A stretch of DNA of 45,034 nt from a virus. The notes beneath the pieces are model-generated. The model made no database searches, was not told where the DNA came from, and was given only the letters and a program-made list of their open reading frames with translations. Where the stretch lies: the UHGV virus genome UHGV-0114729; one strand, written 5' to 3'. Made by a program: the position numbers and the translations under genes. Positions 50 through 38,560 of this stretch are shown here, piece after piece; positions within the stretch are counted from its first letter, which is position 1, and every line of letters begins with the position of its first letter.

Positions 50-598
50 TCAGCTAGCTGGAAACTTTTTATACAGAGTTGAGAGCCCTACTCCATACGT
101 TTTTGATACGCTTTGTCGTGATTCACCGGTTGCCATCCGCTCCCCCATTTCCCGCCATTGCTCATCCGTGAACTTAGGCCTGCGACCACCAACTCGCCAT
201 TTTGCCCTGGCTACGGCCAGCCCTGCTAAGGTACGTTCGCTATTAAGATCAGATTCATATTGTGCTGCGGAAAGGATGTTACGAAAGTTATAGCGGCCGC
301 TGGCTGTTTTGAGATCCACGCCATCGGTAATACTGCGGAAGTTGATACCCTTTTCCTGTAACTGCTGGAACATCAACAGCGCATGCAGAACGTTGCGGCC
401 TATCCTGTCCAGCTTCCACACCACCAGTGTATCGCCCGCATTCAGAGTCCGCAGAAGCTTTTTGAGCGCTGGCCGGTTCGCTACCGTCCCGCTCATTTTT
501 TCTTCAAAAACCTGTTCACATCCTGCGCATTCCAGAGCGCCTCTCTGTAACGCTGTATTCTGGTCATTTGTTGATACCCGGATATATCCAATTTGCAC
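50..598 (-). CDS. Serine DNA invertase, Gin/Pin/Cin/Hin family
   Basis: 182-aa ORF; N-terminal MQIGYIRVSTNDQ with the catalytic serine and near-collinear similarity to Mu Gin as remembered; lies directly beside an invertible tail-fibre segment. Confidence 0.9.
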   Translation of the reverse strand: MQIGYIRVSTNDQNTALQRGALECAGCEQVFEEKMSGTVANRPALKKLLRTLNAGDTLVVWKLDRIGRNVLHALLMFQQLQEKGINFRSITDGVDLKTASGRYNFRNILSAAQYESDLNSERTLAGLAVARAKWRVGGRRPKFTDEQWREMGERMATGESRQSVSKTYGVGLSTLYKKFPAS

Positions 599-663
599 GA
601 ATTACCGCCTCTCTCTATCAAAAAACGCGTGAGAGTAACGGAGGTGGCTATAAATCGCATTAT

Positions 664-690
664 CACAAACCTCGGTTTGGGAACAGCGGC
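664..690. repeat. Left inverted repeat of invertible segment (gix-like crossover site)
   Basis: CACAAACCTCGGTTTGGGAACAGCGGC recurs in inverted orientation at 2126..2152 with one mismatch; core AAACCTCGGTTT matches the gix core of Gin-family sites. Confidence 0.8.
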
Positions 691-1459
691 CACAAAGACG
701 GTCGGCACGGCGACAGGGAATTTGTTGGAAGTGGGCGCATTTGGTTTGGGCGTCAAGGTGCTGAAAGTGAATTCGGTCACTAACGCTGACAGTTTGGAAA
801 ATTGCTCGTTTGCAGCGGGCATTGGCAGCGACGCTATAAATTTTGCGTCTAATTTTGCCCCGATAATTGTAGCGGCGCGCGATGGTGGTGGGGATGGTAC
901 CGGACAGATCTCTCAGATCCAGAGCGATGACGCGCTGCTTGCGTTTAGATATCGAGGCGGCAATGTCTGGTCTCCGTGGCGTTATGTATATCATTCCGCA
1001 AATACAACAAAAACAAGCGATGGCACGTTAAAAGCTGCGTCGCCTGTAATTAAAATTTTTCACGACGGCTCTGCGGAAACTAACGATGAGTCAGAAGGTG
1101 TAACAGTCTCCAGATTGTGTGTTGGGCAGTACTTGATTGAAGGGTGTGTAGGAATGAACTCCGACGCGGCGTGGGGCGGGATTGATGGCGGGTTTGACAT
1201 TCCCCGAGATCGGAACGGACAGGCGCTAATCTGGCTGGATTACGAAGTGAATGCCGACGGATCAATCCTCGTCAAAACATATCACCGCACGTATCCCGCC
1301 GCTCCTGCATTTGCGCGTAACGAGATAGATGGGCTGGCAGCCGGCGACCCGGTCGACATTCCCGCCGACCAGTTCGTTTCTGTGCGCGTTGAAATGCCCG
1401 CTGATAGCATATGGAATCAGCGGCAATCAATTATTCTGGCTGATCAAGAGCCTGAGTGA
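664..1459 (+). CDS. Silent alternative tail-fibre C-terminal cassette (promoterless; expressed only after inversion)
   Basis: Plus-strand ORF 593..1459 shares the TNLGLGTAAT junction peptide in frame with the left repeat; the part upstream of the repeat overlaps the invertase start region and is not a credible start. Confidence 0.6.
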
Positions 1460-2646
1460 CTTGCTCTTTGGTTATTTTGCAGTTGTGCTTGCAGGTCTGA
1501 AATTTGTTGTTGTAGAGCCTGAACACAGCCGAGGAGATCCATTACTATCGGGTTGTTGTCCACGGACGGGCGATCCCGATATTCCTCACTAATTTTATTC
1601 CCGGCCTCATCATACACCTCCGTGCCGGGAATTGGCTCTGGATTATGTTTGATATACTGCGGGGCAATTATTTCTGCGTCTTCCGCAATAACCCCAAAAC
1701 GTACTCGCTCTTGTTCGTCGTCACGGTAAATAAAATTAACAAGCTCAAGCGACAGCACTCTGTTTAGGGCGGTGGCCGCGTCCGCTAGCGCAATATTTTT
1801 CTTGTAATCCCTGCCAGACGTTCCCTGTAATGCAATCGTTCCCGTTGACGTCGGGAAGTTGATCATTACCTGTCCGGTTTTGTCCCAACCAGTGCCTATT
1901 CTTTTCACTAAATACACTGATACGAAATCATTACTCTCCGAATACGACGTCTCGAGCAACACAGTTTTACCAACAGTTGAATCGGGTGCCGAGGTGATTT
2001 CAAGAGTCATATCCGGGTACGACTGGCCTGAAATCCTTAATTTTGGCAGGGTCTGCTCCTGACTAAAGGTATTTTTTTCGCTCAGTAACGGGATTGCGCT
2101 ACCTGATGTGCCTGTGTTTACTGTCGCCGCTGTTCCTAAACCGAGGTTTGTGCGGGCCTCTGCTGCTGTTTTGCCACCGGTGCCGCCCTGAGCGATACTA
2201 AGCGCTGTAGTTAACCCGGTCAGGCTCGTAATGTCCTTATTTGCCCCTTTCTTCGCTAGCGATTTCTGACCAGGAACGGTCACAGCCACACCGTTAATCG
2301 TAATTGTCACGTCCCCTGTGCCGTTCATTACGTCAGCGAATCCGCTCATATTGCGCTGGTACAGAGTGAACGTCTCGGCAATATCTTGCGCCAGCCCATC
2401 AACGCTCAGACTATCACTCAGCAGAATTGAATATTTCGTACCGGCTGGAATTGCTGGGCTGGCAGCAGGCGTTACAGTGAGACTCGTAGCGCTGTTAATT
2501 GCAGTAATCTGAAATACCTGTGCCGGATTTGTCAGTGCAATAACAGTGCAGCCGTTCCGAATTAATGAACCCGCAGCAGTAAAATTAGTTCCGGTGCCGG
2601 TCAGAGTATTACCGCTGACAGCGATAGTGCCGGTTGTATAGATCAT
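1444..2646 (-). CDS. Tail fibre protein: constant N-terminal part plus currently expressed variable C-terminal cassette with intramolecular chaperone (peptidase S74-like) domain
   Basis: ORF 1444..2664; likely start is the ATG at 2646 (MIYTTGT) preceded by GGAG; C-terminal SGRDYKKNIALAD...RFGVIAEDAEIIAPQ resembles the auto-cleaving chaperone of endosialidase-type fibres. Confidence 0.75.
   Translation of the reverse strand: MIYTTGTIAVSGNTLTGTGTNFTAAGSLIRNGCTVIALTNPAQVFQITAINSATSLTVTPAASPAIPAGTKYSILLSDSLSVDGLAQDIAETFTLYQRNMSGFADVMNGTGDVTITINGVAVTVPGQKSLAKKGANKDITSLTGLTTALSIAQGGTGGKTAAEARTNLGLGTAATVNTGTSGSAIPLLSEKNTFSQEQTLPKLRISGQSYPDMTLEITSAPDSTVGKTVLLETSYSESNDFVSVYLVKRIGTGWDKTGQVMINFPTSTGTIALQGTSGRDYKKNIALADAATALNRVLSLELVNFIYRDDEQERVRFGVIAEDAEIIAPQYIKHNPEPIPGTEVYDEAGNKISEEYRDRPSVDNNPIVMDLLGCVQALQQQISDLQAQLQNNQRASHSGS
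2126..2152. repeat. Right inverted repeat of invertible segment (gix-like crossover site)
   Basis: Reverse complement of 664..690 (26/27 identical); lies in frame inside the tail-fibre ORF at the conserved TNLGLGTAAT peptide. Confidence 0.8.
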
Positions 2647-2660: not shown

Positions 2661-2690
2661 GCAATAAAAAAACCCCGCCGGAGCGAGGTT
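2661..2690 (-). terminator. Rho-independent terminator after the lipoprotein gene
   Basis: Minus-strand hairpin CCTCGC-TCCG-GCGGGG followed by TTTTTTTATT. Confidence 0.6.
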
Positions 2691-2709
2691 TATGTTTAAG
2701 CGTAGTGGG

Positions 2710-2943
2710 TTATTTGCAGGTTGTTTCGGTAAATGTATTCGCACTTACCCAGCGCCAGCTGAAAGGATATCCAGCCCGGTACTGCGTCTGGTTGTTTTGT
2801 TTACGCACACCGTAAATCTGAACCGTAGTTTCCTGACCGCCAACGATTGCAGTGCCGCTGCAAACTGGTTCCTGTTTCTCAATTACGCCAGCGCATCCTG
2901 TAAGCATGACAGCGCCTGCCATGCAGATAATCAGTTTTCTCAT
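2710..2943 (-). CDS. Small lipoprotein (moron; possible Cor-like superinfection-exclusion protein)
   Basis: 77 aa; signal peptide plus lipobox LTGC; own promoter-like region upstream and own terminator downstream; sits between tail-tip and tail-fibre genes. Function is inferred from position only. Confidence 0.6.
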   Translation of the reverse strand: MRKLIICMAGAVMLTGCAGVIEKQEPVCSGTAIVGGQETTVQIYGVRKQNNQTQYRAGYPFSWRWVSANTFTETTCK

Positions 2944-3054: not shown

Positions 3055-3729
3055 TCAATCATAGGCCGCTGTATTTATGGCGGTTAATGAAATGCCAGTA
3101 TTCGTTCCCCCTCCAGGTGAACCTGCCCCAGTGGAGGTCCCCCCTGCGTTTATCCTCGTATTGGCCCCGTCAAACCTGCATGAAGAATAAGCATTTATCG
3201 TGTAGATAGTCGGAGGCTTGGTTGAATTATTCACAATGATGGTCTGACCCAACTGAGCAGGTGCAACGGCCCATGACCCGCTCAGCGTCTGGTCAATATT
3301 TATCCCGCCGTTTGCACCAGGCGTGCCAACCGTCTGCAGGTCTGATAGCACACGGGACTCATTAGTTAACACAAGCTTTCCGCTCGCATCCCATATTGCC
3401 AAACCCCATTTCGGTAATATCTGCGGGAATATGGCAAAAACGTACGCCGTTAAAGTGAAACTTTGGTTGTAGGGATTAACACCAGCAACATACACATTAC
3501 CGCCGTTCCTGTAAGACATAACCGGAGTGGGCTGTGCTGTATTGGTGGTTTTGATAAAAACCATCACTGGGTAATCAGCGTTTAAAGCGATATTTTGAGC
3601 AACCTGCTGAGAACTGCCATTCGCGGATGAATTGAAGGTATACTTCCCGTAAAGACAGAAAGGCGTTGATTGTGGCGTTACAAAGGGATTCCCGTTATCC
3701 ATTAATATCATCGCGCCAAATTCGGCCAT
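3055..3729 (-). CDS. Hypothetical tail-associated protein (downstream of J)
   Basis: 224-aa ORF whose start overlaps the stop of the preceding ORF; Gly/Asn/Thr-rich; shares a WDASG motif with the upstream 100-aa ORF. Confidence 0.5.
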   Translation of the reverse strand: MAEFGAMILMDNGNPFVTPQSTPFCLYGKYTFNSSANGSSQQVAQNIALNADYPVMVFIKTTNTAQPTPVMSYRNGGNVYVAGVNPYNQSFTLTAYVFAIFPQILPKWGLAIWDASGKLVLTNESRVLSDLQTVGTPGANGGINIDQTLSGSWAVAPAQLGQTIIVNNSTKPPTIYTINAYSSCRFDGANTRINAGGTSTGAGSPGGGTNTGISLTAINTAAYD

Positions 3730-4031
3730 TATGCTTTCTCCATGAAAACGACCACCTCACATTTAGAGGCCGGGTAATTACCCAGGCCCACAGAAGAGGC
3801 TGCGGTTACGGTTATTGTGTTCCCTGACGCGACAATGCTCCTCCCTACGCTGTTACCTCCTTCATCAAGTGAGAGCGCAAAACCGACCTTCATTCCTGAG
3901 GGTACAGTGAAAGACCAGCTGCCGGAGTTTTGTCCGGCGGCAAGTTGTATACGTCCAACAACGGAAACGGGCTTGATTCCGTAGTTGTTGGGGTTTCCCG
4001 AAGCATCCCAGGTCTGTATTCCATAAGCCAT
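3729..4031 (-). CDS. Hypothetical tail-associated protein (downstream of J)
   Basis: 100-aa ORF overlapping the J stop; translationally coupled. Confidence 0.5.
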   Translation of the reverse strand: MAYGIQTWDASGNPNNYGIKPVSVVGRIQLAAGQNSGSWSFTVPSGMKVGFALSLDEGGNSVGRSIVASGNTITVTAASSVGLGNYPASKCEVVVFMEKA

Positions 4032-4032: not shown

Positions 4033-7000
4033 TCAGAACACCCCCGTTAATCGGCCAACCTGCACTCTCAGAACGTTGTTGCCATCCTTGACGCTGATTG
4101 TCTGGTTGGTCTGCTTCATGGCTCCCTCCCCAGCTGTCGAACCGTAGTTCTCAAACGTCCCGGACTTATCCAGTTTCCAGCCAACAGAGCCGGCAACATA
4201 ATTGTTCGACTGGATGTAATTGCCAATTTTTGCATTGCTTATGGTCCCGTCGCCAATGACTGTATCCCTGATAATGGCCTGGCCATTCTGAATAACGAAT
4301 GGCAGCGTGACCGCACCACCGGCCTGAGTCATAACAGCAAAGCGGTTAGCCAGGAACAGCACCTGCGACTGCATACCTGCTGGCGTATTTTCGACTCCGA
4401 TACCCATTCCGGCAGCGTATTGCCGTCCGTTCGAGTCGATAGCGACTTTAATACTGTACATCGCATTCAGATTTCCGCTGATATCTGCAACCGCCCGTGC
4501 GTTCTGTTCAATTACTGTCGTCTGCCCATTAACTGACACTGTCAGCGAGTTAATCCGCGTTGCTGACGCCTGCGTGAAATCCGCAAGAGTTTTTGCAAAA
4601 TCAGTCGTATTTGCAGTACCACCTCCTGCACTTGAATCCAGCGTTTTGAGTGACTCAGCCACAGCCAGGCTTGCATCAGCCATCACGTTATCGACACGTT
4701 CGAGCCCTGCTTTATTGTCGCCGTACTGCACACTCATTCGCTGCGACTGATTCACCTGCGCTAACGTCTGCTGAATTACTGCAATCGCGTTATTCTGAAT
4801 GCCTCCTTTAATGACGCCCACATTACTGCTCTGATCTGCGATTTCTGCTGAGATTTCGTCAAAACGTAACGCTGTGGCGCTGTCCAAATCCGTGACCACT
4901 TGATCCAACTCGCTGATTTCTGCGGCATTGCGAGTACTGGCTTGTTCCGCCTCATCTGCTTTATCGCTGGCAGCTTTAGTAGCAGCAGAAAGCTCGTCGA
5001 GTCGCAGCGCTGTAGCTGATTCTGTATCTGTCACAACCTGCTCAAGCGCTGTGATTTTCGCTGCATTTTGTGCGCCAACCTTACCCGCCGCGTCCGCTTT
5101 AGAGTCGGCAGTCTTAGTAGCAGCATTGAGTTCATTAAGACGCGTCGCGACTGCTTGAGACTCGTCAGACATAGCTTGACGCACTTCAATGATATCAGCT
5201 GCGTTGTGCTCTGTAGTAGCTTCAAGGCGCAGTACATCAGCAACACGGGCTTCGGTCTCGTTGGCTATGGCTTCCTGTGTGCGCTCGATCCCGGCCTTGT
5301 TGTCCAGGTACTGAACCGTCATGGTGTTGCGCTGGCTAACCTGAGCTAACGTGTTGTTAATCAGAGCGATGGCATTACTCTGAATGCCGCCCGCAGCGCT
5401 GGCAGTAGCAGCGCTAAGCTCATCAAATCGTGAAGCGGCCGCAGAGGTGCTATCTGTAACAACTTGGGTAAGTGATGTGATATCCGCGCTGTTCTGTGCG
5501 CCAACCTTACCCGCCGCGTCCGTAGCAGCAGTAAGCTGATCGACAGCAGTTGCGCGGGCTTGAGTTTCATCAGCAAGTGCTTGTCGAACCTCAGTGATGC
5601 CCGCCGCGTTATCCTTCGTCTTAGCTTCGAGACGGGTAACATCGGTCACGCGAGCTTCAGTTTCTGTCGCTACAACTTCCCGTAGTTGCTCGAATTGCGC
5701 CGTATTAGCGCCGTTTTGGGCGGTCTGACGCAATACGACATCAGTAATCGCGAGAGAATTGGCAATAATAGCTTCAGCGGTCTGTTTGTTAGATGAAACC
5801 GCCGCGGCAAGACTATCTGCATTTTCACGAATCGCTGCTGCCAGATTTTCAGTACTGGATTTCAAATCCTCTGCAGTTTGTTTCCCGTCAATAATTGCAG
5901 CTGCCAGCGCGTCGGCATTTTCCCGGACCGCATCAGTCAGTTCGGCAATATTTTTGGTATCCTCATCTACAGTGGCGATCAGGTTTTTGAAAACCTCTGT
6001 TTCCTGAATCTCTTTGAATATTGCATCCGTAATTTCTGAAACATCGGTGCTCGCCTGCCCGCGCACCCAGTCGGTATACCCCGATTCGTTACCGGTCCGG
6101 TCAACAAGTTGCGCGCGGTACCAGAAAATCTGCCCAGCCTTAAGGCCCATCTGCTGATATTTGCGCTGCGGGTAAGGCACATCGGCCAGCAGCATTGCAT
6201 CGTCCTCGGTACCGGTCAGGCTATACTGAATTTCCGTCTTCAGCGTGTCTTCGGTATTCGCCGGGAATCCCCAGTTCAGCTCGATACCGAATACCACGTT
6301 TTCAGAAGCGATGAAGCCAACCGGCTTCGGTGGGTTTCCCACTTTACCCGTCAACGTTTTCTCTTCTGAATAGCCCCACCCAGATGAAATTTCGGCGGCA
6401 TTGATGGCACGCACGCGAACCAGGTAGCGTCCTGCATAAATCCCCGGAACATCGAATGACGTGGTGGAGCTGCGCGGCACATTCACCCAGTTCCCGTCAT
6501 TGCGACGCCACTGTGCCTCATACGCGATAGCATTTTTCGCCTGGTCCCAGCTGACGCGCATGGTCTCAACGCTGATATTCTGCTGAACGACAGAAAACGA
6601 ACTGATCGCGATATTAGCTGGCGGGGACTGATTACCGGGCGGAATTACACTTATTGGCCGCTGGTCGATAATGGCACCGGTATCGATACGCGCATATTTA
6701 TCCGGATCGTGCAAAGCGCCAGCAATCGAATACGTTCCGTCATTATTATCCGTAACGCTGATAACGCGATATTGCTGCGCGTAAAGCTCTTCAGACTCGA
6801 CAATCCACACCGATTCCACTGCAGGTGTTTCGCTGTATGCCGTTGTCACAGTGACGGCCCGCCCGTTTACGCTCTGTATCGTCCTGCTCTGCGATGCGCC
6901 GGACGGAAGGTTAACCATCAGACGGCTTCCGGGAGCGGCTGCCGAATCACGATCAAGCGTGATAACGCGACCGTTAACCGCACTGATGCGCCCTCCCATC

Positions 7001-8490
7001 ACTTTTCCGGAAAGCAGCTCATCGGCAACCGCGATGATATAACCAGGCTGTGGGATCTTACCGTCAAGACCAACATCGAACGACACGATGCGATCCTTGT
7101 TATTGGTCAGGATACCCCAACGTCCTTTGCGGTTTGCCTCTGACTGCCGGGTACAACCAATGGCTGTCATTTCGAGCTGATTTGTGCCAAAGCGAGCAAC
7201 GAGATCCTGCTCAAATACAGGCTCCATCGCATCCGCGTAGGCATTACCCGGATCGGACCAGGAAACCAGTGCCGTGGTATAGCGGGTTTTGGTGGTGCTG
7301 CCCGAATAGGTAAAGCGCCCATTAACCACGTTTGCACGCGTGTAGCTGTAATCCACATCGCGGGGCATATCCGCCAGCGCAACGATTTGATCGCCACCCC
7401 AGTACGTCATGCCCCGGAATATCGCCGCAAAATCACGTAACACGGTATAGGCGTCATTCCTCTCCTGCACGTACACGTTACAGGTATAGCGAGGCTCAGT
7501 GCCGCTACCGCCTTTACCATCAGGAACCGGCTGATCGCAATATTGCGCGACCTGATAAAGCGTCCATTTATCAATATTGGCCGCCGTCAGGCGATTGCCC
7601 AGCCCAAAGCGGTCGCTCACCACCAGATCGTAAAAAATCCAGGCTGGATTATCCGTCCACGCCCACTTAAACGCCCCTGTCCATGTGCCGCTGTAGGTGC
7701 GGGTCTCCGGGTCATACGTATCCGGAACGCGGATTACACGCCCTCGCGGTTCGCAGGATATTTGCGGGATAGAGCCGTTAAACTGGCTTGAGTCGAATTC
7801 GATGTACAGCAGCGCGGTATTTGGATAACGCAGTTTGGCGTCAATAACCTCTGTGTAGCTCTGCAGCGTCATCGTGTCGCCAATTTTCGCGCTGTTGGCA
7901 TCCGCCGTAAGCTTACGCAGGCGCACCGTCCATGTACTGCCTGCCTGTGGTAAATCGATACGATGGCTGCGTTCGTAGCCGGAAGTTGTCTTGCCGGTTA
8001 CGCTGGTATTAAGTACCGTCTGCCAGGTGCCGCCATCGGTCTGCAGATCAATAGCGTAGTTAATTGAATAGCCAACCAGATCGCCATCATCCTCCTGTTT
8101 AAAAAGCGATGGCCACTTGAGGCGCAGGCGAACGGCTGACAGTTGCGTGTTGGTAAAGGTATGTGTCCAGCCGGTGGTGCTTGACACTTCGGTGCCCACG
8201 CTGATTTCATTTTCTGTGCCGGGGATACCCTGAATATATTTTTGTGCCTGAGTCCCCGGACGAAATTCCCACGCCACGCCACTGAAGTTTTGCGATCCGT
8301 CTGCATTCTCCAGTGGCGTGCCATCGAGATAGATATCCTTCGCCGTCAACTGCCCTGCAAATTCGCCCTCTCCCAGTGCAACAAGAATTTTGGCTTTCGC
8401 TACGGACTGGAGATCGTCTGGTTGTTCAGTCGGGGTGCGTGAACTGGAGCTGCCGCCCTTGCGGCCTCTAATCGGAGTAGATGTAGCCAT
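4033..8490 (-). CDS. J: Host specificity protein J (central tail fibre / tail tip)
   Basis: 1485 aa; follows I as in lambda; J-like N-terminal two-thirds; carries an internal tandem duplication in the C-terminal third. Confidence 0.85.
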   Translation of the reverse strand: MATSTPIRGRKGGSSSSRTPTEQPDDLQSVAKAKILVALGEGEFAGQLTAKDIYLDGTPLENADGSQNFSGVAWEFRPGTQAQKYIQGIPGTENEISVGTEVSSTTGWTHTFTNTQLSAVRLRLKWPSLFKQEDDGDLVGYSINYAIDLQTDGGTWQTVLNTSVTGKTTSGYERSHRIDLPQAGSTWTVRLRKLTADANSAKIGDTMTLQSYTEVIDAKLRYPNTALLYIEFDSSQFNGSIPQISCEPRGRVIRVPDTYDPETRTYSGTWTGAFKWAWTDNPAWIFYDLVVSDRFGLGNRLTAANIDKWTLYQVAQYCDQPVPDGKGGSGTEPRYTCNVYVQERNDAYTVLRDFAAIFRGMTYWGGDQIVALADMPRDVDYSYTRANVVNGRFTYSGSTTKTRYTTALVSWSDPGNAYADAMEPVFEQDLVARFGTNQLEMTAIGCTRQSEANRKGRWGILTNNKDRIVSFDVGLDGKIPQPGYIIAVADELLSGKVMGGRISAVNGRVITLDRDSAAAPGSRLMVNLPSGASQSRTIQSVNGRAVTVTTAYSETPAVESVWIVESEELYAQQYRVISVTDNNDGTYSIAGALHDPDKYARIDTGAIIDQRPISVIPPGNQSPPANIAISSFSVVQQNISVETMRVSWDQAKNAIAYEAQWRRNDGNWVNVPRSSTTSFDVPGIYAGRYLVRVRAINAAEISSGWGYSEEKTLTGKVGNPPKPVGFIASENVVFGIELNWGFPANTEDTLKTEIQYSLTGTEDDAMLLADVPYPQRKYQQMGLKAGQIFWYRAQLVDRTGNESGYTDWVRGQASTDVSEITDAIFKEIQETEVFKNLIATVDEDTKNIAELTDAVRENADALAAAIIDGKQTAEDLKSSTENLAAAIRENADSLAAAVSSNKQTAEAIIANSLAITDVVLRQTAQNGANTAQFEQLREVVATETEARVTDVTRLEAKTKDNAAGITEVRQALADETQARATAVDQLTAATDAAGKVGAQNSADITSLTQVVTDSTSAAASRFDELSAATASAAGGIQSNAIALINNTLAQVSQRNTMTVQYLDNKAGIERTQEAIANETEARVADVLRLEATTEHNAADIIEVRQAMSDESQAVATRLNELNAATKTADSKADAAGKVGAQNAAKITALEQVVTDTESATALRLDELSAATKAASDKADEAEQASTRNAAEISELDQVVTDLDSATALRFDEISAEIADQSSNVGVIKGGIQNNAIAVIQQTLAQVNQSQRMSVQYGDNKAGLERVDNVMADASLAVAESLKTLDSSAGGGTANTTDFAKTLADFTQASATRINSLTVSVNGQTTVIEQNARAVADISGNLNAMYSIKVAIDSNGRQYAAGMGIGVENTPAGMQSQVLFLANRFAVMTQAGGAVTLPFVIQNGQAIIRDTVIGDGTISNAKIGNYIQSNNYVAGSVGWKLDKSGTFENYGSTAGEGAMKQTNQTISVKDGNNVLRVQVGRLTGVF

Positions 8491-23965: not shown

Positions 23966-24260
23966 CGTAAGAAGACGATAAGCTGGAAAGGACCCGAATA
24001 ATGCATACATCCGCATATATTATGGGCCCACACTCAAGCAAATAACTTGTATATGGTCGTAAAATCCTAATAGCATCTACCAAAGCAAACTATTGAAATT
24101 AACCTGTTCATCATGCTTTAAAATAAACCTATGTAATTAACATTTCCACTTAGTTCCAAACTGTTGTGTGTAGCAACTGACACATAGCCAAGAAATAAAT
24201 ATCGTCGCAACTTATATGTCACCCCACTAAACCTTATCAACAAACTTACACGTTAAACAC

Positions 24261-25148
24261 TTAATCCCTATCTAAAATCCCTTTCTTATAAGCCCTAGCA
24301 AGATAAAGTAGGTTACTTTCCTTATCATCACTATGTAAAATCTCAGCATGCTTATCACTTACTTTAATGAATCCCTTCGCAGCCTGCAGAAGCCCCAAAC
24401 CTGTCACCAACGGATTTTCCGTGTCGCTAACACTAATAATCGCTCCTAAAACAATATTAACCATATCGTCAGAACCTGGCATTTCAAAACTTAAATTGTA
24501 GCGATTTAAGAACCAACCTTTATTAATTTCACTAATTCTGTTTATATCTTCCAAGGAATTACGGAAGCGTTCATAAGCCTTTTTTTGAAAAAGCGGCTCA
24601 TCGGGAGCATAAGCAACATCTTGGTATAAGTCATCCAGATAATTATGGAACGCATCATAATCAACTTTATATTTATGCTTAAACTCAAGTATCTGCTCAG
24701 GATGGATATGTGGTCCGGGAACAGGAAGTGCATCAAAGAGTTCAAGTTTTAAGTTCGTATTTCTATCACTTGTCCCATTCCCCCCTATAAATTCCTCTCC
24801 TATCTGATGTAAATTCCAGTCACGCTGAGGCTCATCCTTCCTTAACTTACTAAGTATCTCAACCTGACGTTTTGGGAACTCTATCGGGTACTGATCGCTA
24901 TTGAATCCGATAGACACTACTGGTCTAGACAAAAAGTCCAAACCAATCAATATATCTTCTCGGGGTAATTGAAAATATATTTCTCTTGAGCCTGGAATTA
25001 CTAATCTATCCCAAAAAAGAGTGTAATAATTCAAATCTTCTTCATTCAACCCTCGCGCTGTCTGGAATCCACCAGTGGGCAAAACTTCCGTCATAACAGG
25101 TGAAGCAACAACACATCTTTCCACAATATTCCCCTTAGTAGTTTTCAC
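24261..25148 (-). CDS. Hypothetical protein, AT-rich cargo gene between Rz and cos
   Basis: 295-aa ORF; GC content visibly lower than flanking phage genes; AT-rich flanks; first codon is GTG and the true start is uncertain (GTG at 25124 has a better SD); contains RDWNLH. Confidence 0.55.
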   Translation of the reverse strand: MKTTKGNIVERCVVASPVMTEVLPTGGFQTARGLNEEDLNYYTLFWDRLVIPGSREIYFQLPREDILIGLDFLSRPVVSIGFNSDQYPIEFPKRQVEILSKLRKDEPQRDWNLHQIGEEFIGGNGTSDRNTNLKLELFDALPVPGPHIHPEQILEFKHKYKVDYDAFHNYLDDLYQDVAYAPDEPLFQKKAYERFRNSLEDINRISEINKGWFLNRYNLSFEMPGSDDMVNIVLGAIISVSDTENPLVTGLGLLQAAKGFIKVSDKHAEILHSDDKESNLLYLARAYKKGILDRD

Positions 25149-25398
25149 TCAAAAGCTTAGGAGAAAGTAACTATCACACCCACAAAAAAAAGTAAACGAA
25201 AAATACTGTATACTTGATTTGGATTATGAAACTCTATCAGTCACGCTTGTGGCAATAATAAAAATAATCGACAACATCGGAATACCTAATAAACAATCAT
25301 CTCAAAAATGAAATCTACTAGCATTTTTCAGAACGTCTTTTTCATAAACTAGTACATAGAACAGTTTGACTGACTTCATAAAATTTATTTTTCCCTAG

Positions 25399-25920
25399 TT
25401 AATGAGATGCTCGAACATTTTCTATCTCTCGAATCCCTGCAAAGCGCTTGTTGCCCTTTTCGATAAGTGACAGTAACGGTTTTATCCAAAGCACTGCCTG
25501 ACAATATGTCATTGGGCTGGTGGTAACGGCACGATCATCGGCTGAGTTAAGTTTGTCGGTATCGGTGTGCATGGCGCTGGCACGTAAACGGTACGCGTAT
25601 TCGAGCAGCCCACCAGCAATGTCAGCAGGAACAGGCAGATCACAGGTTTTTTCACGGCGGAGAATCTCCCGGTATTCGATAACTGTTTCTTCAGTACTGG
25701 TGTCGATCAGGGAGTTAAGCCTGATGGCATGTTCGGCAACCTGATTGAATCGATTGAAGTTGAATGCCTGGGTGGCGATCACCTGCCCCTGCATAGAATT
25801 GTCGCTTCGCAGAACGTCGTTATCGCTCTGAAGGCTACTGGCGTCGGAGCAACTCTTAACGAGAGCGACCGAAAGGACAGCAATAACAACAACGCCGATA
25901 AGACCCGGATTAATTTTCAT
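25399..25920 (-). CDS. Rz: Rz i-spanin
   Basis: Start MKINPG at 25920 overlaps the endolysin stop (ATGA); N-terminal transmembrane segment then coiled-coil periplasmic domain. Confidence 0.8.
   Translation of the reverse strand: MKINPGLIGVVVIAVLSVALVKSCSDASSLQSDNDVLRSDNSMQGQVIATQAFNFNRFNQVAEHAIRLNSLIDTSTEETVIEYREILRREKTCDLPVPADIAGGLLEYAYRLRASAMHTDTDKLNSADDRAVTTSPMTYCQAVLWIKPLLSLIEKGNKRFAGIREIENVRASH
25509..25655 (-). CDS. Rz1: Rz1 o-spanin lipoprotein, embedded in the +1 frame of Rz
   Basis: Hand-translated: GTG start after GGGAG, MKKPVICLFLLTLLVGC lipobox, proline-rich mature part, 48 aa; not on the ORF track because it is under 60 aa. Confidence 0.7.
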   Translation of the reverse strand: MKKPVICLFLLTLLVGCSNTRTVYVPAPCTPIPTNLTQPMIVPLPPAQ

Positions 25921-26465
25921 TGGTCTAACCCCCAGCACGCCAGTGCGCTTTCCTGGTCCCGTCGCTCAACCTGACCATAGCAGCCATTCTTCTGGCCTTT
26001 GGTTAGACGGCAATCACGGCCACCGTCTTTAATCCACCAGCGGATAGCTTCACAGGCTCCTTTCGTATCGCCAGCATTAATTCGCTTATAGAACGTAGAC
26101 GGGAAACATTTTCCGGGGCCGATGTTATATGGGCAGAAAGAAGCGATACCCGCTTTCTGTGGTTCGGTCAGTGGTACTTTGATATTTCGGTCAACCCACG
26201 CCAGCGCCTTGTCGCGTTCAATGGCGTTTACCTGGGCGCATTTCTCAGCTGACAGCTTCATGCCCTGTACTACTGGCTTGCCATCAACCATTGTTGCACC
26301 ACGGCAAATGGTCCAGAGTCCGCCGCCGTCGCGATATGCTGTCAAGCTGTTACCCTCTTTCTCATCCAGAAACTGATCGAGAATCACGGGTGCGGAAGCC
26401 CCGGCAAGAATCAAACCAACGACCGCTGCGCTCAATTTATTCTTCAGCTTTAGAGACATAGCCAT
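25917..26465 (-). CDS. R: SAR endolysin (T4-lysozyme-like, signal-anchor-release)
   Basis: 182 aa; N-terminal weakly hydrophobic SAR segment; E-x8-D-x5-T catalytic spacing (EGNSLTAYRDGGGLWT); resembles P21 R21. Confidence 0.85.
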   Translation of the reverse strand: MAMSLKLKNKLSAAVVGLILAGASAPVILDQFLDEKEGNSLTAYRDGGGLWTICRGATMVDGKPVVQGMKLSAEKCAQVNAIERDKALAWVDRNIKVPLTEPQKAGIASFCPYNIGPGKCFPSTFYKRINAGDTKGACEAIRWWIKDGGRDCRLTKGQKNGCYGQVERRDQESALACWGLDQ

Positions 26466-26715
26466 TGCGCCGATCCTCCCGTTCTTTCCAGCGGAAATAC
26501 CAGTTCACTGCACAGGTGATTACCGTGCATGCGATACCGACAATAATTGCCCAGTCGCTCAGGCTTAACCCTGCAATTCTGTCGGCCAACATCCAGGACA
26601 CCTCTTTTGCTGTTTTTGCTGTTTCGGCATATGCCTTCGCTGATACACCGCAGCCGGTCAGCGTGGTGCCTGTTCCATATGAAAGTCTGCTGTAAATGGT
26701 GCTCATTCTGGTCAT
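26437..26715 (-). CDS. S: Pinholin (S21-like class II holin) with dual start Met1/Met4
   Basis: 92 aa; MTRM dual-start; SAR-like first transmembrane segment; C-terminal WAIIVGIACTVITCAVNWYFRWKEREDRR resembles S21. Confidence 0.8.
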   Translation of the reverse strand: MTRMSTIYSRLSYGTGTTLTGCGVSAKAYAETAKTAKEVSWMLADRIAGLSLSDWAIIVGIACTVITCAVNWYFRWKEREDRRNGYVSKAEE

Positions 26716-26823
26716 AGCCTCACCTCCGATTCTTCGGATGGCGCTGTGTGTGTATGAAAAGGATCAGGCTTCACTGGCTGGATTTATCAACAAAGCACGT
26801 AGCGGATGATTCCCGGAAGCCTG

Positions 26824-26851
26824 AAATAAAAAAGCCCCGCTATTACGGGGC
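26824..26851 (-). terminator. Rho-independent terminator after the Q-S moron gene
   Basis: Minus-strand GCCCCG-TAATAG-CGGGGC followed by TTTTTTATTT. Confidence 0.7.
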
Positions 26852-26879
26852 AGTTAATAGAATTATAAAGTTTAAAAGT

Positions 26880-27521
26880 TTAAAAGTTTAAAGGAACCAT
26901 AAAGCTACCAGGCTCTGCACCAGCTTCTTTATTTATTTCTTTACGGATTACCTCATTAATCTGAAAAGCCTCATTGTATACTTTTTCTAAGTTAATTGAC
27001 GCCTTCATATTATAGTATGTTTTTTCCTCACAAACATATAACCTTATCGGATATGGCCTAGGGTTGATTGCCTTCCAGTGGGAGATCACAAAATTATAAA
27101 CTGCAATACCATGACCTTTCATCTTCCCTGCTGTAACATCAATGTTTAGCTGATCTAAATACTCATCGAAGTGTTGCAAGGTGTTTCTCACCCTCACGGA
27201 ATTAATTTCCTTAATTTCAATATCTTTTATTTTTTCTTGAAGGTAATTACTTCGCTTAATATGCAATCTGAATTGTTCAGGGGATTCTTCCCTAGTCTGA
27301 TTTTTAGGAACTGCGATTAGTTTCTTGACGTTAGCCGCATCTGAAAGAATACTATTTATTAATATATGAATATTGTAATCAATTTTAAAGTAGTAACCAG
27401 CATCAGGAAGTGGTGTCTCATGAAAGAGCTCTTCACAGCGTGTTTTTATCGAATGAGTTAACAACCATAATTCGTGCAAATAAATAAAATTAAGTTTCAT
27501 TTGCTCAAAGGTTTTTGACAT
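26880..27521 (-). CDS. Hypothetical protein, AT-rich moron between Q and the lysis genes
   Basis: 213-aa ORF with strong SD (AAGGAGAG N6 ATG), own sigma70-like promoter (TTCACA-N18-TATAAA) and own terminator; contains RNTLQH at residues 112-117. Confidence 0.65.
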   Translation of the reverse strand: MSKTFEQMKLNFIYLHELWLLTHSIKTRCEELFHETPLPDAGYYFKIDYNIHILINSILSDAANVKKLIAVPKNQTREESPEQFRLHIKRSNYLQEKIKDIEIKEINSVRVRNTLQHFDEYLDQLNIDVTAGKMKGHGIAVYNFVISHWKAINPRPYPIRLYVCEEKTYYNMKASINLEKVYNEAFQINEVIRKEINKEAGAEPGSFMVPLNF

Positions 27522-27854
27522 AGCGAACTCTCCTTTTCAATAGTCCGCTTTTATAGCATTTACATAAGGGGCCTGTGAATTACTATTCTGTTGCTTACCA
27601 CACTCTCGCAGTGGCCGCGCTCATGCCTTTGAGACCGTAGTCAGGGGTATCTCATGAATCCCTCACCTCTAACCGGAGAACGATTGGCGATCGTTCTGGA
27701 GTACCGGCACACCTCTTCTTTATTAACCCTAACCAGTGTGTGTTGCAGTTCGTACCTGCATCTGGCTCTCATGGAGACTCGGGACCGCATCACGACTGCG
27801 GATTTGCCTATCGGCTGCGGTCTATCCGTTTACTGGTGCATTTTCTTACCCTCC

Positions 27855-27890
27855 AGAAACGCAAAAGCCCCACGGTGTTATCCGCAGGGC
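27855..27890 (-). terminator. Candidate tR'-like terminator downstream of Q
   Basis: Minus-strand 9-bp stem GCCCTGCGG / CCGTGGGGC (two G-U pairs) followed by TTTTGCGTTTCT, about 100 nt past the Q stop. Confidence 0.5.
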
Positions 27891-27988
27891 TTGAAACGAA
27901 GGCATTAACCCATCGTTGGGACAAAATTAACACAGATTCGGGAAAAGTAAATAGCCCGCAACAAAATCGCAGGCTATCGCTACAGGCG
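27891..27988 (-). promoter_or_regulatory. Candidate late promoter (PR'-like) and Q-utilisation region
   Basis: Position immediately downstream of Q and upstream of the terminator; promoter hexamers not confidently resolved. Confidence 0.3.
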
Positions 27989-28819
27989 TTACCGCGTTAT
28001 CTGCTTAAGCTGTTTTTCTGCCCATGCCTCTTCAATATCGAATTTCGTAATCAGCTGATCATAGAACGGTTTAACGGACTTCTTCCACGTATCCAGGCTG
28101 ATTACATCCGTAATCTGGCAAACAGCTGCGTGGGCCTCAGTTGACGGGATGCGCTCATATCCGCGACCGCCACAGCGCTTGCAGGTGCTGAATACTGGAA
28201 CGCCTTGCTGCTTCGTTTCCTTCTGATTCACCGCTTTCCCACGGCCACGGCAATCACTACATGCGCAACTGATGGCTTTTTTCCCTTTGCACTGAGGACA
28301 GAGAACGCGCGTTATCTCTTTTACCTCACGCCTGTTTTGGTGCTGCGAAGGTATCACCTTCAAACCAAACGCTTTTGATGCCTTAATGATTTCTTTTGCA
28401 TGTGCCGGCGTATTGGTTTTCATACTGAATACCTCAGCATCAATAAAGCCCTCACCGTTGCAGCAATCGCACCGTTTTACACTGGCTGCGCTGCGGGAAT
28501 AATCCTCAAATGCGAAGGTGGCCAACTGGTACATCACCTGAGGCTTAACCCCGAAATCCAACTTACGCAGCGCGGCAACCTTGTCACATTTGGTCATCGC
28601 GTACTCAGCCAGCAGTCCGATAGCCCGATCCCGGTCGTTATTGCTTATGCCCATCTTGCCGAGGAAGGCGCTGTAACCCATTGCGGCGCGTTCCTGGGTC
28701 ATGCCCATGGCCGCCATGACATCCGTCCCGGTCAGCGAATCTGAACCAGTGGCGCGCGGAGAGTCGCTAATAAGCGTCGACTTGGCGAAGTGATATTTCA
28801 CGGTGTTTTCGAGGTTCAT
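27989..28819 (-). CDS. Q: Late-gene antiterminator Q (large Cys-rich Q family)
   Basis: 276 aa; SDSPRATGSDSLTGTDVMAAMGM N-terminal motif and CxxC zinc-binding motifs as in enterobacterial prophage Q proteins; position upstream of the lysis genes. Confidence 0.8.
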   Translation of the reverse strand: MNLENTVKYHFAKSTLISDSPRATGSDSLTGTDVMAAMGMTQERAAMGYSAFLGKMGISNNDRDRAIGLLAEYAMTKCDKVAALRKLDFGVKPQVMYQLATFAFEDYSRSAASVKRCDCCNGEGFIDAEVFSMKTNTPAHAKEIIKASKAFGLKVIPSQHQNRREVKEITRVLCPQCKGKKAISCACSDCRGRGKAVNQKETKQQGVPVFSTCKRCGGRGYERIPSTEAHAAVCQITDVISLDTWKKSVKPFYDQLITKFDIEEAWAEKQLKQITR

Positions 28820-28952
28820 TAGGCTGCTCCTGCTGAATGATAGATACGAACAAAATTACGAAGAATGCGATAATCCACCAGCACCGATCCCCGGTAGCGA
28901 TAAATGCGAAGGCGCTGCCAGCGCGCGCGGAGTATCTCAAGCGTTTCTGGCT

Positions 28953-29309
28953 TCATTTGGCCTCCTCAATAATGATTTGCCCGGTTTCTCCCCAGATTTT
29001 GGTAACCCGTCCGTCCCAGACATGGCTATCCTCGTCAAACACTGCATCCAGCAAAGCTTTTTCCAGGTTGTCTTTGTCCGGCTTTTGTCGATGTGGCTTG
29101 CCGACATATTGCGCCCGCTTTGCCTTACTCCAGCTCTTTGGCATGGGGATAACGAACGTGACGTGATATCCGGACTCAGGCAGACGGATGCCGAGCAACC
29201 TGACCTGTTCTTTGTAAGCCCAGTACGCTGCCGTTGCTGGCCGTTTATGCCATCGGTCACGCTGAGTCATCCTGGGCTTGCCAATCGGCGTAATTTCGTA
29301 AATTTTCAT
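28953..29309 (-). CDS. rusA: RusA-family Holliday junction resolvase
   Basis: 118 aa; KPDKDNLEKALLDAV matches the RusA DxDN...K catalytic motif; nin-region position. Confidence 0.8.
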   Translation of the reverse strand: MKIYEITPIGKPRMTQRDRWHKRPATAAYWAYKEQVRLLGIRLPESGYHVTFVIPMPKSWSKAKRAQYVGKPHRQKPDKDNLEKALLDAVFDEDSHVWDGRVTKIWGETGQIIIEEAK

Positions 29310-29590
29310 GCGGGCACCACCAGCCCGCGGCGGGCAACTTCAATCACTGTCAGAACAATCGCGCGATCCATAAGCTGCCGGCGCTCTTCCCTGTTCAGCT
29401 TATTCCCGTTATCAATGCTGTCATGACAGCAAACGCAGAGCGCAGCTGTCGCACAGTCATCAGTTTTTAATCCCATGCCTTTCCCTTCGTTCCGGTGTGC
29501 CACCTGCGTTCCCCATGCGCCACAAAGAACACAACGTTCGATCTGCCCGACTGCGGCGAGCCACTTCTTGCTGCGGTAGGTTTTACTCAT
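29306..29590 (-). CDS. YbcO-like (DUF1364) putative nuclease
   Basis: Cys/His pattern [14 protein letters not shown]...[11 protein letters not shown] resembles DLP12 YbcO; likely start MSKTYRS at 29590. Confidence 0.65.
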
Positions 29591-30873: not shown

Positions 30874-31053
30874 ACGTCACCTCCGAGAGGTAACGCAGAA
30901 TGCAGAAAATCGCAGGTGCCGTTAAGCATCTGTGACAAGGTGATACGTTCAAGTTGTGGTCGCATTTAATGTCCCCATCAAATGCGCAGAAGTCTTACCG
31001 TCGGGCGTTCAACTCCGACGGCGACTTAATTATGGCTGGTTGATTACTGAAAA

Positions 31054-37891: not shown

Positions 37892-38560
37892 ATGATTCGT
37901 CTTAACAACGAAATTAAAAATCAGCTATGCCATAACCTGCTTCTCGCATCCCCATTGTTTGAGAAAGCGAAAGCTGCGGTTAATGAGAGGGCGAAAATTG
38001 TTGAAGAAATTCGACAGGCATTGCTCAAGCAGGAAAACACTAGCGATGAGCAAATAACTAAGGCTCGGGAAGATTTCAAAGATAACTCCTTCATCAAGAT
38101 GCAGGTCGGCGCTAAAACTGCAATTTTAAAGGTCATTATTAATGGTGAGTATCACGAATTAGCCAGGAACGGTTTGGATCATCGCTATCGCCACCGTGGA
38201 AAACATATTGGTAAGCACGATCTTGAAAGCGACCTGTTCTTCGGAGCTTCCTTCGCGCCTGTAATTGATTCGGGTTTCGTTCCTGAAAGTTACAGCACGC
38301 TGAAGAAAGTTGGAAAATTACACGACCGACTCACTGAATCGACGGTAACCATCAACGTTCTTTACGATGAAGTTGATGCCTTCCAATTGCAGGTTAAAGG
38401 TGCTCTAACCAAAGTCTCAACTGTTAAAAAACTGGCTGAGATGTGGCCTGATGCAGTGCCATATTTGCCTGAGGTGGAACGCCGTGAAGCGACCAGCACC
38501 GCACTTGCCATTCCCGTTGAAACGCTAAACGCCCTTTGCGGCATACCAAAGAATGAATGA
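37892..38560 (+). CDS. Hypothetical protein, first gene downstream of PL (AT-rich cargo)
   Basis: 222-aa ORF with GAGGG RBS; lower GC than neighbours; followed at once by a strong terminator; contains overlapping RNGLDH and RHRGKH motifs. Confidence 0.6.
   Translation: MIRLNNEIKNQLCHNLLLASPLFEKAKAAVNERAKIVEEIRQALLKQENTSDEQITKAREDFKDNSFIKMQVGAKTAILKVIINGEYHELARNGLDHRYRHRGKHIGKHDLESDLFFGASFAPVIDSGFVPESYSTLKKVGKLHDRLTESTVTINVLYDEVDAFQLQVKGALTKVSTVKKLAEMWPDAVPYLPEVERREATSTALAIPVETLNALCGIPKNE

What the first reader, a model, noticed from the sequence alone, without database searches (positions are those of the whole stretch)
664..2152. The two fibre cassettes are asymmetric and no separate fibre-assembly gene is present
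The expressed cassette (2126 down to 1444) ends in an S74-like intramolecular chaperone (SGRDYKKNIA...RFGVIAEDAEIIAPQ). The silent cassette (690..1459) has no recognisable chaperone, and the segment has no room for Tfa/U-type genes because the two cassettes overlap stop-to-stop at 1444..1459. In Mu and P1 each orientation brings its own assembly gene. The silent fibre either folds unaided, uses a chaperone encoded elsewhere, or is a decaying cassette.
Basis: partly seen in the sequence, partly recalled or inferred. Interest (0 to 1): 0.5.

Follow-up and report, generated by a model that had tools for sequence, protein, structure and literature searches.

The report
Chaperone-gene-free invertible phage tail-fibre switch
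A phi80-like E. coli prophage flips a 1.5-kb DNA segment to swap the tip of its side tail fibre between two unrelated modules, neither of which comes with the separate assembly gene seen in phages Mu and P1; the layout is real and working, but the same design is already present in the published phage LLS.

Summary
Window 664..2152 is bounded by 31-nt inverted repeats whose 12-bp core is identical to the core of the Mu gix site. It holds two convergent fibre C-terminal cassettes whose stop codons overlap at 1444..1459. A Gin/Pin-type serine invertase gene lies next to it at 50..598. The expressed cassette ends in a Peptidase_S74 intramolecular chaperone with an invariant Ser277/Lys282 pair, and its model matches the 3GW6 fold. 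The silent cassette ends in PF25670 (Phage_tail_C_2). Sequence profiles, profile-profile comparison and fold search found no chaperone in it, and no assembly ORF exists in the segment or was found in the prophage.

The silent cassette is not decaying. A sister E. coli prophage carries the exact segment inverted at 100% identity. The PF25670-tipped fibre is the commoner state in public assemblies: 162 contigs against 21. PF25670 fibres stand alone, with no annotated assembly gene beside them, in T1, phi80, HK140, HK639, HK75, Oslo and a T5-like Klebsiella phage. So the missing Tfa gene is a normal property of both module types, not a defect. Phage LLS (2025) has the same S74 + PF25670 + invertase layout. 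The finding is ordinary to modestly interesting. How PF25670 folds is inferred, not shown.

The parts
50..598 (-). Serine DNA invertase of the Gin/Pin/Cin/Hin type, 182 aa
   Evidence: Pfam Resolvase (E 1.3e-37) plus HTH_7 (E 1.2e-9). It is 56% identical to Mu Gin and 59% identical to the 'Fin' invertase of phage LLS. Its 5' coding DNA is strongly conserved with gin.
664..694 (.). Left inverted repeat (crossover site). The core AAACCTCGGTTT is at 667-678. The repeat encodes ..TNLGLGTAAT.. of the plus-strand cassette.
   Evidence: In the sister prophage, identity to the window switches strand exactly at this repeat.
2122..2152 (.). Right inverted repeat (crossover site). The core is at 2138-2149. 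It lies inside the fibre gene at the constant/variable boundary (TNLGLG = residues 166-171).
664..2152 (.). Invertible segment, 1489 bp, holding two convergent C-terminal cassettes and nothing else
   Evidence: It is the exact reverse complement (100% identity) of the segment in E. coli P27_L1_05.20, between unchanged flanks.
1444..2646 (-). Side tail fibre gene in its current state (400 aa): a constant N-terminal anchor and shaft joined to the S74 cassette
   Evidence: Residues 8-113 of the 406-aa ORF match the N-terminal part of phage depolymerases 7VYV/7LZJ. This exact protein is found on 21 public contigs.
2152..2646 (-). Constant part of the fibre gene (residues 1-165), shared by both fibre forms
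   Evidence: It is identical in the 400-aa and 429-aa proteins.
1819..2121 (-). Variable tip region of the S74 cassette, upstream of the predicted self-cleavage site; presumed receptor-binding part
   Evidence: Homologous to the C-terminal part of phage DT57C LtfA (8hqz_d residues 884-1070, E 1.5e-52). The model is beta-rich with moderate confidence.
1447..1818 (-). Peptidase_S74 intramolecular chaperone (residues 277-400). Ser277 is at codon 1818-1816 and Lys282 at codon 1803-1801.
   Evidence: Pfam. Ser and Lys are invariant in 39 homologues. The only significant PDB fold matches are 3GW6 'Intramolecular Chaperone' and the MyRF ICA domain 7DC3.
665..1459 (+). Alternative cassette, silent in this copy (264 aa from TNLGLG to the stop). 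After inversion it gives a 429-aa fibre.
   Evidence: The 429-aa protein P0001 is found on 162 public contigs.
1001..1402 (+). PF25670 (Phage_tail_C_2) C-terminal domain of the alternative cassette
   Evidence: Pfam E 2.1e-59, covering profile positions 1-133 of 133. It is homologous to the C-terminus of phage SU10 gp12 (7z47_D, E 4.8e-82). The AlphaFold2 model has block-mean pLDDT of 76-98 over cassette residues ~91-260, against 46-68 before that. No solved-fold match was found.
1400..1456 (+). Short C-terminal tail after the PF25670 domain (ADSIWNQRQSIILADQEPE). It starts with a motif, DSIWNxxQ or a close variant, seen in about two thirds of the aligned homologues.
   Evidence: The model predicts a helix at cassette residues 249-261.
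2670..2691 (-). Terminator-like hairpin between cor and the fibre gene
   Evidence: The same position is annotated as a terminator in HK140 and phi80.

Best explanation
This is a Gin/Pin-type site-specific inversion switch at the end of the late operon of a phi80-like prophage, integrated next to yciI/tonB.

The invertase (50..598) recombines two inverted sites that lie in the fibre reading frame, at the conserved ..ARTNLGLGTAAT.. motif. Each flip joins the constant 165-residue anchor and shaft of the side tail fibre, in frame, to one of two unrelated C-terminal tips.

Tip A is on in this window. It is a tip like that of the T5-family fibre protein LtfA, followed by a Peptidase_S74 intramolecular chaperone. 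By analogy with endosialidase and T5 pb1, this domain drives trimer folding and then cuts itself off at Ser277.

Tip B is off here but on in most sequenced copies. It ends in a compact beta-rich PF25670 domain that stays on the fibre.

Neither tip needs a separate Tfa/U-type assembly gene. Tip A carries its chaperone in cis. PF25670 tips assemble without any dedicated phage-encoded partner wherever they occur. That is why the segment can be only 1.49 kb with the two cassettes abutting stop to stop.

Shown here: the anatomy, the inversion itself, the intactness and prevalence of both forms, the domain identities, and the absence of any recognisable chaperone gene.

Inferred, not shown: self-cleavage of tip A, unaided folding of tip B, and a change of host-surface (probably glycan) specificity between the two states.
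For: Anatomy and inversion:
- Repeats and gix-identical core.
- Invertase domains and 56% identity to Gin.
- Exact inversion between this window and E. coli P27_L1_05.20, with 100% identity inside the segment and 99.7-99.95% in the flanks.
- Both fusion proteins exist in public data: 400 aa on 21 contigs and 429 aa on 162 contigs, each with the matching silent-ORF form.

Tip A:
- S74 Pfam hit.
- Homology to DT57C LtfA, E 1.5e-52.
- The GTSG-x3-K motif, with Ser and Lys five residues apart, is invariant in 39 homologues.
- Fold match to 3GW6 and 7DC3 only.

Tip B:
- Full-length PF25670 match.
- 1009 homologues at E <= 0.001; among the 150 best, listed, the match runs to within a few tens of residues of the C-terminus in nearly all.
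- 13 invariant and 27 nearly invariant columns among 61 sequences.

No assembly gene:
- Six overlapping small ORFs in the segment have no PHROG match.
- PGAP names no fibre assembly protein in the sister prophage, which is 99.95% identical over window 2122-23996.
- The ten window-specific ORFs scanned have no such domain.

PF25670 fibres with no annotated assembly gene next to them: phi80, HK140, T1, kuravirus PGN6866, HK639, Acinetobacter phage qsb1, E. coli and Enterobacter prophages, a T5-like Klebsiella phage, Psymv2, Oslo and HK75.

Same S74 + PF25670 + invertase layout without tfa in phage LLS: and PMC12315714.
Against: - Unaided folding of the PF25670 tip is an argument from absence. 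Small unannotated ORFs, host chaperones or a Tfa from another prophage in the same cell cannot be excluded.
- In phage SU10 the PF25670-bearing protein gp12 is called the 'proximal' fibre protein, and only residues 1-90 were resolved (PMC9509320). There is therefore no experimental structure or function for this domain, and in some phages it may be a joint rather than a tip.
- Only monomer models could be made, so trimer formation was not examined.
- The TM-scores of the S74 model to 3GW6 are low (0.26). Fold support rests on Foldseek probability plus the sequence motif.
- Inversion was seen between isolates, not within one culture.
- All 14 near-identical copies among complete E. coli RefSeq genomes are in the PF25670-on state, so the switching rate is unknown.
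Confidence: 0.75

Rival explanations
1. The PF25670 tip depends on a chaperone supplied in trans. This could be a Tfa from another resident prophage, an unrecognised small phage protein (for example the conserved 100-aa and 224-aa proteins between J and cor), or a specific host factor. The switch would then be asymmetric in a functional sense.
For: No chaperone element is recognisable in the cassette, so some help is conceivable. Two proteins of unknown function (3729..4031 and 3055..3729) lie just upstream in the operon. mEpX1 has an unannotated 143-aa ORF after its PF25670 fibre.
Against: PF25670 fibres occur in phages of the T1, T5-like and kuravirus groups, which are lytic phages (my own knowledge) and cannot count on prophage genes. 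None of them has an annotated assembly gene beside the fibre. The 100-aa and 224-aa proteins are equally present in prophages whose only fibre is S74-type, so they are not specific to PF25670. PGAP names no fibre assembly protein in the sister prophage. The mEpX1 ORF has no Pfam or PHROG family and is absent here.
Confidence: 0.17
2. The PF25670 cassette is a decaying or non-functional remnant, and only the S74 form makes a working fibre.
For: It is silent in this window. Frozen or eroded switches do exist in relatives: phi80 has pinL with pseudogene fragments, and another phi80-like prophage has an orphan invertase with no repeats.
Against: The ORF is intact and matches the Pfam profile end to end. 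Family-wide invariant residues are conserved in it. It is 100% identical in a genome where it is the expressed tip. That expressed form is found on 162 contigs against 21 for the S74 form. All 14 near-identical copies in complete E. coli genomes are in that state.
Confidence: 0.02
3. The two orientations are fixed alleles produced by rare recombination between the repeats, not a live programmed switch. The invertase would be a relic.
For: All 14 near-identical copies in complete genomes share one orientation. Orphan invertases occur in relatives. No within-culture heterogeneity was examined.
Against: The invertase ORF is intact with both domains. The crossover core is identical to that of gix. 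The breakpoints fall exactly in the repeats, with 100% identity across the segment and 99.7-99.95% identity in the flanking prophage DNA. Both states occur among near-identical sequences in public assemblies.
Confidence: 0.06

Closest known systems
Tail-fibre inversion module of Escherichia phage LLS (PQ299149; Genome Res 2025, PMC12315714)
   Same: LLS is a lambdoid siphovirus. Its fibre gene is followed by a convergent second fibre cassette and a serine invertase ('Fin', 59% identical to the one here). Inverted repeats are annotated at the AAACCTCGGTTTGGGAA motif. One cassette ends in PF25670 and the other in Peptidase_S74, and there is no tfa gene.
   Different: The cassettes are only 57% (PF25670) and about 24% (S74) identical to those here. 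LLS has a 61-nt spacer between its cassettes instead of a 16-nt overlap. It integrates at ssrA rather than at the phi80 site. The authors state only that tip switching 'similar to Mu and P1' is likely, and the word 'chaperone' was not among the terms I searched in that paper.
Mu G segment / Gin, with P1 C segment / Cin and e14 P segment / Pin
   Same: A serine invertase lies next to the segment. The crossover core AAACCTCGGTTT is identical. The crossover lies inside the fibre ORF, so a constant N-terminus is joined to alternative C-termini. The two cassettes are convergent.
   Different: In Mu each orientation brings its own assembly gene (S-U and S'-U') and the segment is about 3 kb. Here there is no such gene and the segment is 1.49 kb. 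The fibres belong to a siphovirus side fibre, not a myovirus baseplate fibre. The statements about P1 and e14 rest on my own knowledge; those loci were not examined here.
Peptidase_S74 intramolecular chaperone domains (endosialidase K1F, PDB 3GW6; L-shaped fibres pb1/LtfA of T5 and DT57C)
   Same: There is a Pfam hit and a conserved Ser-x4-Lys pair (Ser and Lys five residues apart). The domain sits at the C-terminus after the receptor-binding region. The model matches the 3GW6 fold, and the sequence is homologous to DT57C LtfA at E 1.5e-52.
   Different: Here the domain is part of an invertible cassette. Self-cleavage was not tested. T5 pb1 itself was not recovered by sequence search.
PF25670-ended side or lateral fibres of phi80, HK140, HK639, HK75, T1, Salmonella phage Oslo and kuravirus SU10 gp12
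   Same: The same C-terminal domain is present (E 1e-32 to 1e-61; 7z47_D E 4.8e-82). In phi80-like phages the N-terminal anchor and the operon position after J and cor are also the same. No assembly gene is annotated next to any of them.
   Different: Those fibres are fixed and not switchable. Phi80 keeps only an invertase gene and pseudogene fragments. In SU10 the protein is described as the proximal fibre half and is followed by a second fibre protein.

Membership tests
Gin/Pin/Cin/Hin-type invertible tail-fibre segment | Small serine recombinase (Resolvase catalytic domain plus C-terminal HTH) encoded next to the segment | tested here: met
   Pfam PF00239 E 1.3e-37 and PF02796 E 1.2e-9. It is 56% identical to Mu Gin over 181 aa.
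Gin/Pin/Cin/Hin-type invertible tail-fibre segment | Two crossover sites in inverted orientation with the AAACC-NN-GGTTT core | tested here: met
   31-nt repeats. The core AAACCTCGGTTT at 667-678 and 2138-2149 is identical to the core of both Mu gix sites.
Gin/Pin/Cin/Hin-type invertible tail-fibre segment | The crossover lies inside the fibre ORF, so both orientations give in-frame full-length fibres | tested here: met
   Both the 400-aa and 429-aa fusions are open reading frames, and both are present in public assemblies.
Gin/Pin/Cin/Hin-type invertible tail-fibre segment | Inversion actually occurs | tested here: met
   The segment is the exact reverse complement, between unchanged flanks, in E. 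coli P27_L1_05.20. This is a comparison between isolates only; it was not observed within one culture.
Gin/Pin/Cin/Hin-type invertible tail-fibre segment | Fis-dependent recombinational enhancer in cis, located in the 5' part of the invertase gene in Gin, Hin and Cin (own knowledge) | tested here: inconclusive
   The 5' coding DNA is highly conserved with gin, including a 31-nt identical run. Coding constraint could explain this, and Fis sites were not mapped.
Mu/P1-style cassette organisation (fibre C-terminus plus its own assembly gene) | Each orientation carries a cognate Tfa/U-type chaperone gene downstream of the variable fibre part | tested here: not met
   The cassettes overlap stop to stop. 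Six overlapping small ORFs have no PHROG match. Profile comparison with Mu U gives probability 0.1%. Mu itself shows S-U and S'-U'.
Peptidase_S74 intramolecular chaperone (expressed cassette) | Pfam PF13884 match above the gathering score, at the C-terminus of a fibre or spike | tested here: met
   32.3 bits against a cut-off of 22, E 1.2e-7.
Peptidase_S74 intramolecular chaperone (expressed cassette) | Catalytic Ser and Lys five residues apart at the cleavage site (Ser911/Lys916 in endosialidase NF; own knowledge) | tested here: met
   Ser277 and Lys282, in the motif QGTSGRDYK, are invariant in 39 homologues.
Peptidase_S74 intramolecular chaperone (expressed cassette) | Fold of the endosialidase chaperone domain | tested here: met
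   The only Foldseek PDB hits with E <= 0.001 are 3GW6 (7.6e-5, probability 1.0) and the MyRF ICA domain 7DC3. TM-scores are low (0.26-0.28) because a monomer model is compared with intertwined trimers.
Peptidase_S74 intramolecular chaperone (expressed cassette) | Self-cleavage and release of the C-terminal fragment after trimerisation | not testable with these tools
   This needs SDS-PAGE or mass spectrometry of virions or recombinant protein. The predicted released fragment is residues 277-400.
PF25670 Phage_tail_C_2 (silent cassette) | Full-length match to the Pfam profile at the C-terminal end of a phage tail fibre protein | tested here: met
   199.8 bits against a cut-off of 27, covering profile positions 1-133 of 133. 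Among the 150 best of 1009 homologues, the match reaches close to the C-terminus in nearly all.
Any known fibre chaperone element within the silent cassette | Sequence-profile or fold similarity to an S74 chaperone or to a Tfa/U protein | tested here: not met

The most novel reading that the evidence does not exclude
The PF25670 module may be a self-sufficient, uncleaved trimerisation and receptor-binding tip with a fold that has no solved relative. Its short conserved C-terminal motif (DSIWNxxQ) and charged helical tail might play the nucleating role that the S74 coiled coil plays in the other cassette. If so, this switch pairs two different in-cis solutions to fibre folding, one cleaved and one retained. 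It would be a natural, minimal (1.5 kb), chaperone-gene-free template for swapping receptor-binding tips on lambdoid phages.
Probability: 0.3. Interest if true: 0.45.

Novelty: new member of a known kind. Interest (0 to 1): 0.3.

Why it matters
The switch shows that a DNA-inversion host-range switch does not have to carry assembly genes, provided the alternative tips fold on their own. That makes the module very compact.

For phage engineering, tips that need no partner chaperone are the easiest to transplant. This locus names two such families and the exact junction, the NLGLG motif, at which nature swaps them.

It also flags PF25670 as a very widespread fibre end (about 1000 representative clusters) for which I found no solved structure of the domain and no report of its receptor or assembly route.

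For annotation, the 'tail fiber domain-containing protein' and 'hypothetical protein' ORFs next to such fibres are the off-state cassettes of a switch, not separate genes.

Full report
**What is in the sequence**

The left end of the window is the right arm of a lambdoid prophage of the phi80/HK022/mEp group. The genes lie on the minus strand in this order:
- a J-like central fibre gene (4033..8490);
- two small conserved genes (3729..4031 and 3055..3729);
- cor (2710..2943);
- a terminator-like hairpin (2691-2670);
- the side tail fibre gene (1444..2646, 400 aa, starting MIYTTG);
- a 182-aa serine recombinase gene (50..598).

A 31-nt inverted repeat sits at 664-694 and 2122-2152. Its core, AAACCTCGGTTT, is identical to the core of both gix sites of phage Mu. 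The recombinase is 56% identical to Gin. The right repeat lies inside the fibre gene and encodes TNLGLG (residues 166-171). The left repeat encodes the same peptide at the head of a plus-strand ORF that runs to a stop at 1457-1459.

**The inversion is real**

E. coli P27_L1_05.20 carries the same prophage next to yciI/tonB. Window 2122-23996 is 99.95% identical to it (1-694: 99.7%). The exception is that 664..2152 is present as its exact reverse complement at 100% identity, with the strand switch falling inside the repeats. There the fibre gene reads through into the other cassette and gives a 429-aa protein.

An exact-sequence look-up finds both forms in public assemblies:

| Fibre state | Full-length protein | Contigs | Matching silent-cassette ORF |
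|---|---|---|---|
| S74-on (this window) | 400 aa | 21 | 271-aa PF25670 ORF on 26 contigs |
| PF25670-on | 429 aa | 162 | 242-, 188- and 259-aa S74 ORFs on 183, 87 and 16 contigs |

All 14 near-identical copies among complete E. coli RefSeq genomes are in the PF25670-on state. So the cassette called 'silent' is the commoner expressed tip. It is not decaying.

**The expressed cassette**

- Pfam finds Peptidase_S74 (E 1.2e-7, above the gathering score).
- The last ~190 residues are homologous to the C-terminus of the L-shaped tail fibre protein LtfA of the T5-like phage DT57C (8hqz_d, E 1.5e-52).
- In an alignment of 39 homologues the motif GTSG-x3-K is invariant. This places Ser277 and Lys282 five residues apart. 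From my own knowledge, that is the spacing of the Ser911/Lys916 pair of endosialidase NF.
- An AlphaFold2 model of the cassette has high confidence over the chaperone part. Its only significant Foldseek hits in the PDB are the endosialidase 'Intramolecular Chaperone' 3GW6 and the related MyRF ICA domain 7DC3 (probability 1.0, E about 1e-4). TM-scores are low, as expected when a monomer model is compared with intertwined trimers.

Self-cleavage itself cannot be tested here.

**The other cassette**

Pfam finds only PF25670 (Phage_tail_C_2), matched end to end at E 2.1e-59. PHROGs returns tail-fibre families only.

The closest PDB sequence is gp12 of kuravirus SU10 (7z47_D, E 4.8e-82). Only residues 1-90 of that protein were built in the map (PMC9509320). 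I therefore found no experimental structure of the domain.

A search of 1.84 billion representative proteins gives 1009 relatives at E <= 0.001. Among the 150 best, which are listed, the match reaches close to the C-terminus in nearly all.

Profile-profile comparison with the S74 alignment matches only the shared N-terminal shaft. Comparison with Mu U gives a probability of 0.1%.

**No assembly gene anywhere**

- Six small ORFs (54-130 aa) that overlap the cassettes have no PHROG family.
- PGAP names no tail fibre assembly protein in the sister prophage.
- The ten window-specific ORFs I scanned between 24 and 38 kb have no such domain.
- The 100-aa and 224-aa proteins upstream are also present in prophages whose only fibre is S74-type. 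They are therefore not helpers specific to PF25670.

**Why the asymmetry is not a problem**

PF25670-ended fibres have no annotated assembly gene next to them in a wide range of phages:
- phi80, HK140 and mEpX1;
- T1, HK639 and Acinetobacter phage qsb1;
- E. coli and Enterobacter prophages;
- Salmonella phage Oslo, HK75 and Psychrobacter phage Psymv2;
- kuraviruses, where the next gene is a second fibre protein.

In a T5-like Klebsiella phage, the PF25670 protein sits directly after the collar protein annotated as the attachment point for the L-shaped tail fibre. In DT57C the L-shaped fibre protein LtfA ends in the S74-type C-terminus. The two end types therefore also alternate in T5-like L-shaped fibres, without any inversion.

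The most economical reading is that both modules are autonomous with respect to phage-encoded chaperones. One achieves this with a cleaved in-cis chaperone and the other with a domain that folds and stays. This is inference from comparative absence, not a demonstration. Host chaperones and unannotated partners remain possible.

**Comparison with what is known**

The switch works like Mu G/Gin. It has the same recombinase family, the same crossover core, and the crossover lies inside the fibre ORF. It lacks the S-U / S'-U' organisation.

The same organisation without a tfa gene is present in phage LLS: one PF25670 cassette, one S74 cassette, annotated inverted repeats at the same motif, and a 'Fin' invertase. 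The authors say only that tip switching like Mu and P1 is likely (PMC12315714).

Relatives also show frozen versions. Phi80 has pinL plus pseudogene fragments. Another phi80-like prophage at the same site has an S74 fibre and an invertase but no repeats and no second cassette.

By analogy with the lateral fibres of small siphoviruses, the fibre probably binds a surface glycan as a non-essential primary receptor (PMC8594841). That paper itself says this has never been directly demonstrated, and it was not tested here.

**Verdict**

'Folds without a dedicated gene' is favoured.

This is a further example of a known kind of switch, in a compact layout already deposited for phage LLS. The open points are modest:
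- how PF25670 trimerises;
- whether its conserved DSIWNxxQ motif and tail matter;
- what the two tips recognise.

Noticed in passing
window 1400-1456 (+); alignment A2: After the PF25670 domain (...VRVEMP), about two thirds of the 61 aligned homologues carry the motif DSIWNxxQ or a close variant, followed by a charged E/Q/K-rich tail (median 24 aa, up to 57 aa in most). The window's tail ADSIWNQRQSIILADQEPE has the motif and is modelled as a helix. Its function is unknown. SU10 gp12 lacks it, since its sequence ends one residue after VEMP.
   Followed up: partly
L019:3986-6429; L004:1149-2202 (phi80): Some phi80-like prophages have 'frozen' switches. One, at the same yciI site, has an S74 fibre and an intact invertase but no inverted repeats and no second cassette. 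Phi80 itself has pinL plus pseudogene fragments.
   Followed up: partly
L024:1019-3058 (Klebsiella phage vB_Kpn_K7_rec14): In this T5-like phage, a PF25670-ended protein follows the collar protein annotated as the attachment point for the L-shaped tail fibre. DT57C LtfA, an L-shaped fibre protein, ends in an S74 chaperone instead. The same two end types therefore alternate in another phage group without inversion.
   Followed up: no
L005:4839-5915 (LLS gene 23): The S74 cassette of LLS aligns poorly (24% identity). At the position of the conserved QGTSG-x3-K motif it reads ..PNCDITLK.., so a Cys may stand where the catalytic Ser is expected. This could be an alignment artefact.
   Followed up: no
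window 3055-4031 (-): Two conserved proteins of unknown function (100 aa and 224 aa; phrog_557 and phrog_425) lie between the J-like gene and cor. Both also weakly match phrog_2427, which suggests related N-termini. They are present whichever side fibre type the prophage has.
   Followed up: partly
window 598-1444 (-): No terminator-like site lies between the fibre stop codon and the invertase gene on the same strand. Late transcription could therefore run antisense through the silent cassette into the invertase gene.
   Followed up: no
L007:983-3154 (phage T1): In T1 the fibre is split into two genes. A 151-aa protein is homologous to the constant N-terminal anchor of the fibre here, and a separate 538-aa protein ends in PF25670.
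   Followed up: no
window 24000-43300: The window shares only diverged patches (79-95% identity) or no detectable similarity with the sister prophage here, although the structural genes are 99.95% identical. Window-specific ORFs include a DUF6236 protein (24261..25148) and an Nmad5 nucleotide-modification-associated protein (37892..38560).
   Followed up: no
PDB 7Z47 chain D / PMC9509320: The PF25670-bearing SU10 gp12 is described as the proximal half of the long tail fibre, and residues 91-786 are unresolved. I therefore found no experimental structure of this widespread domain. Its role as tip or joint may differ between phages.
   Followed up: partly
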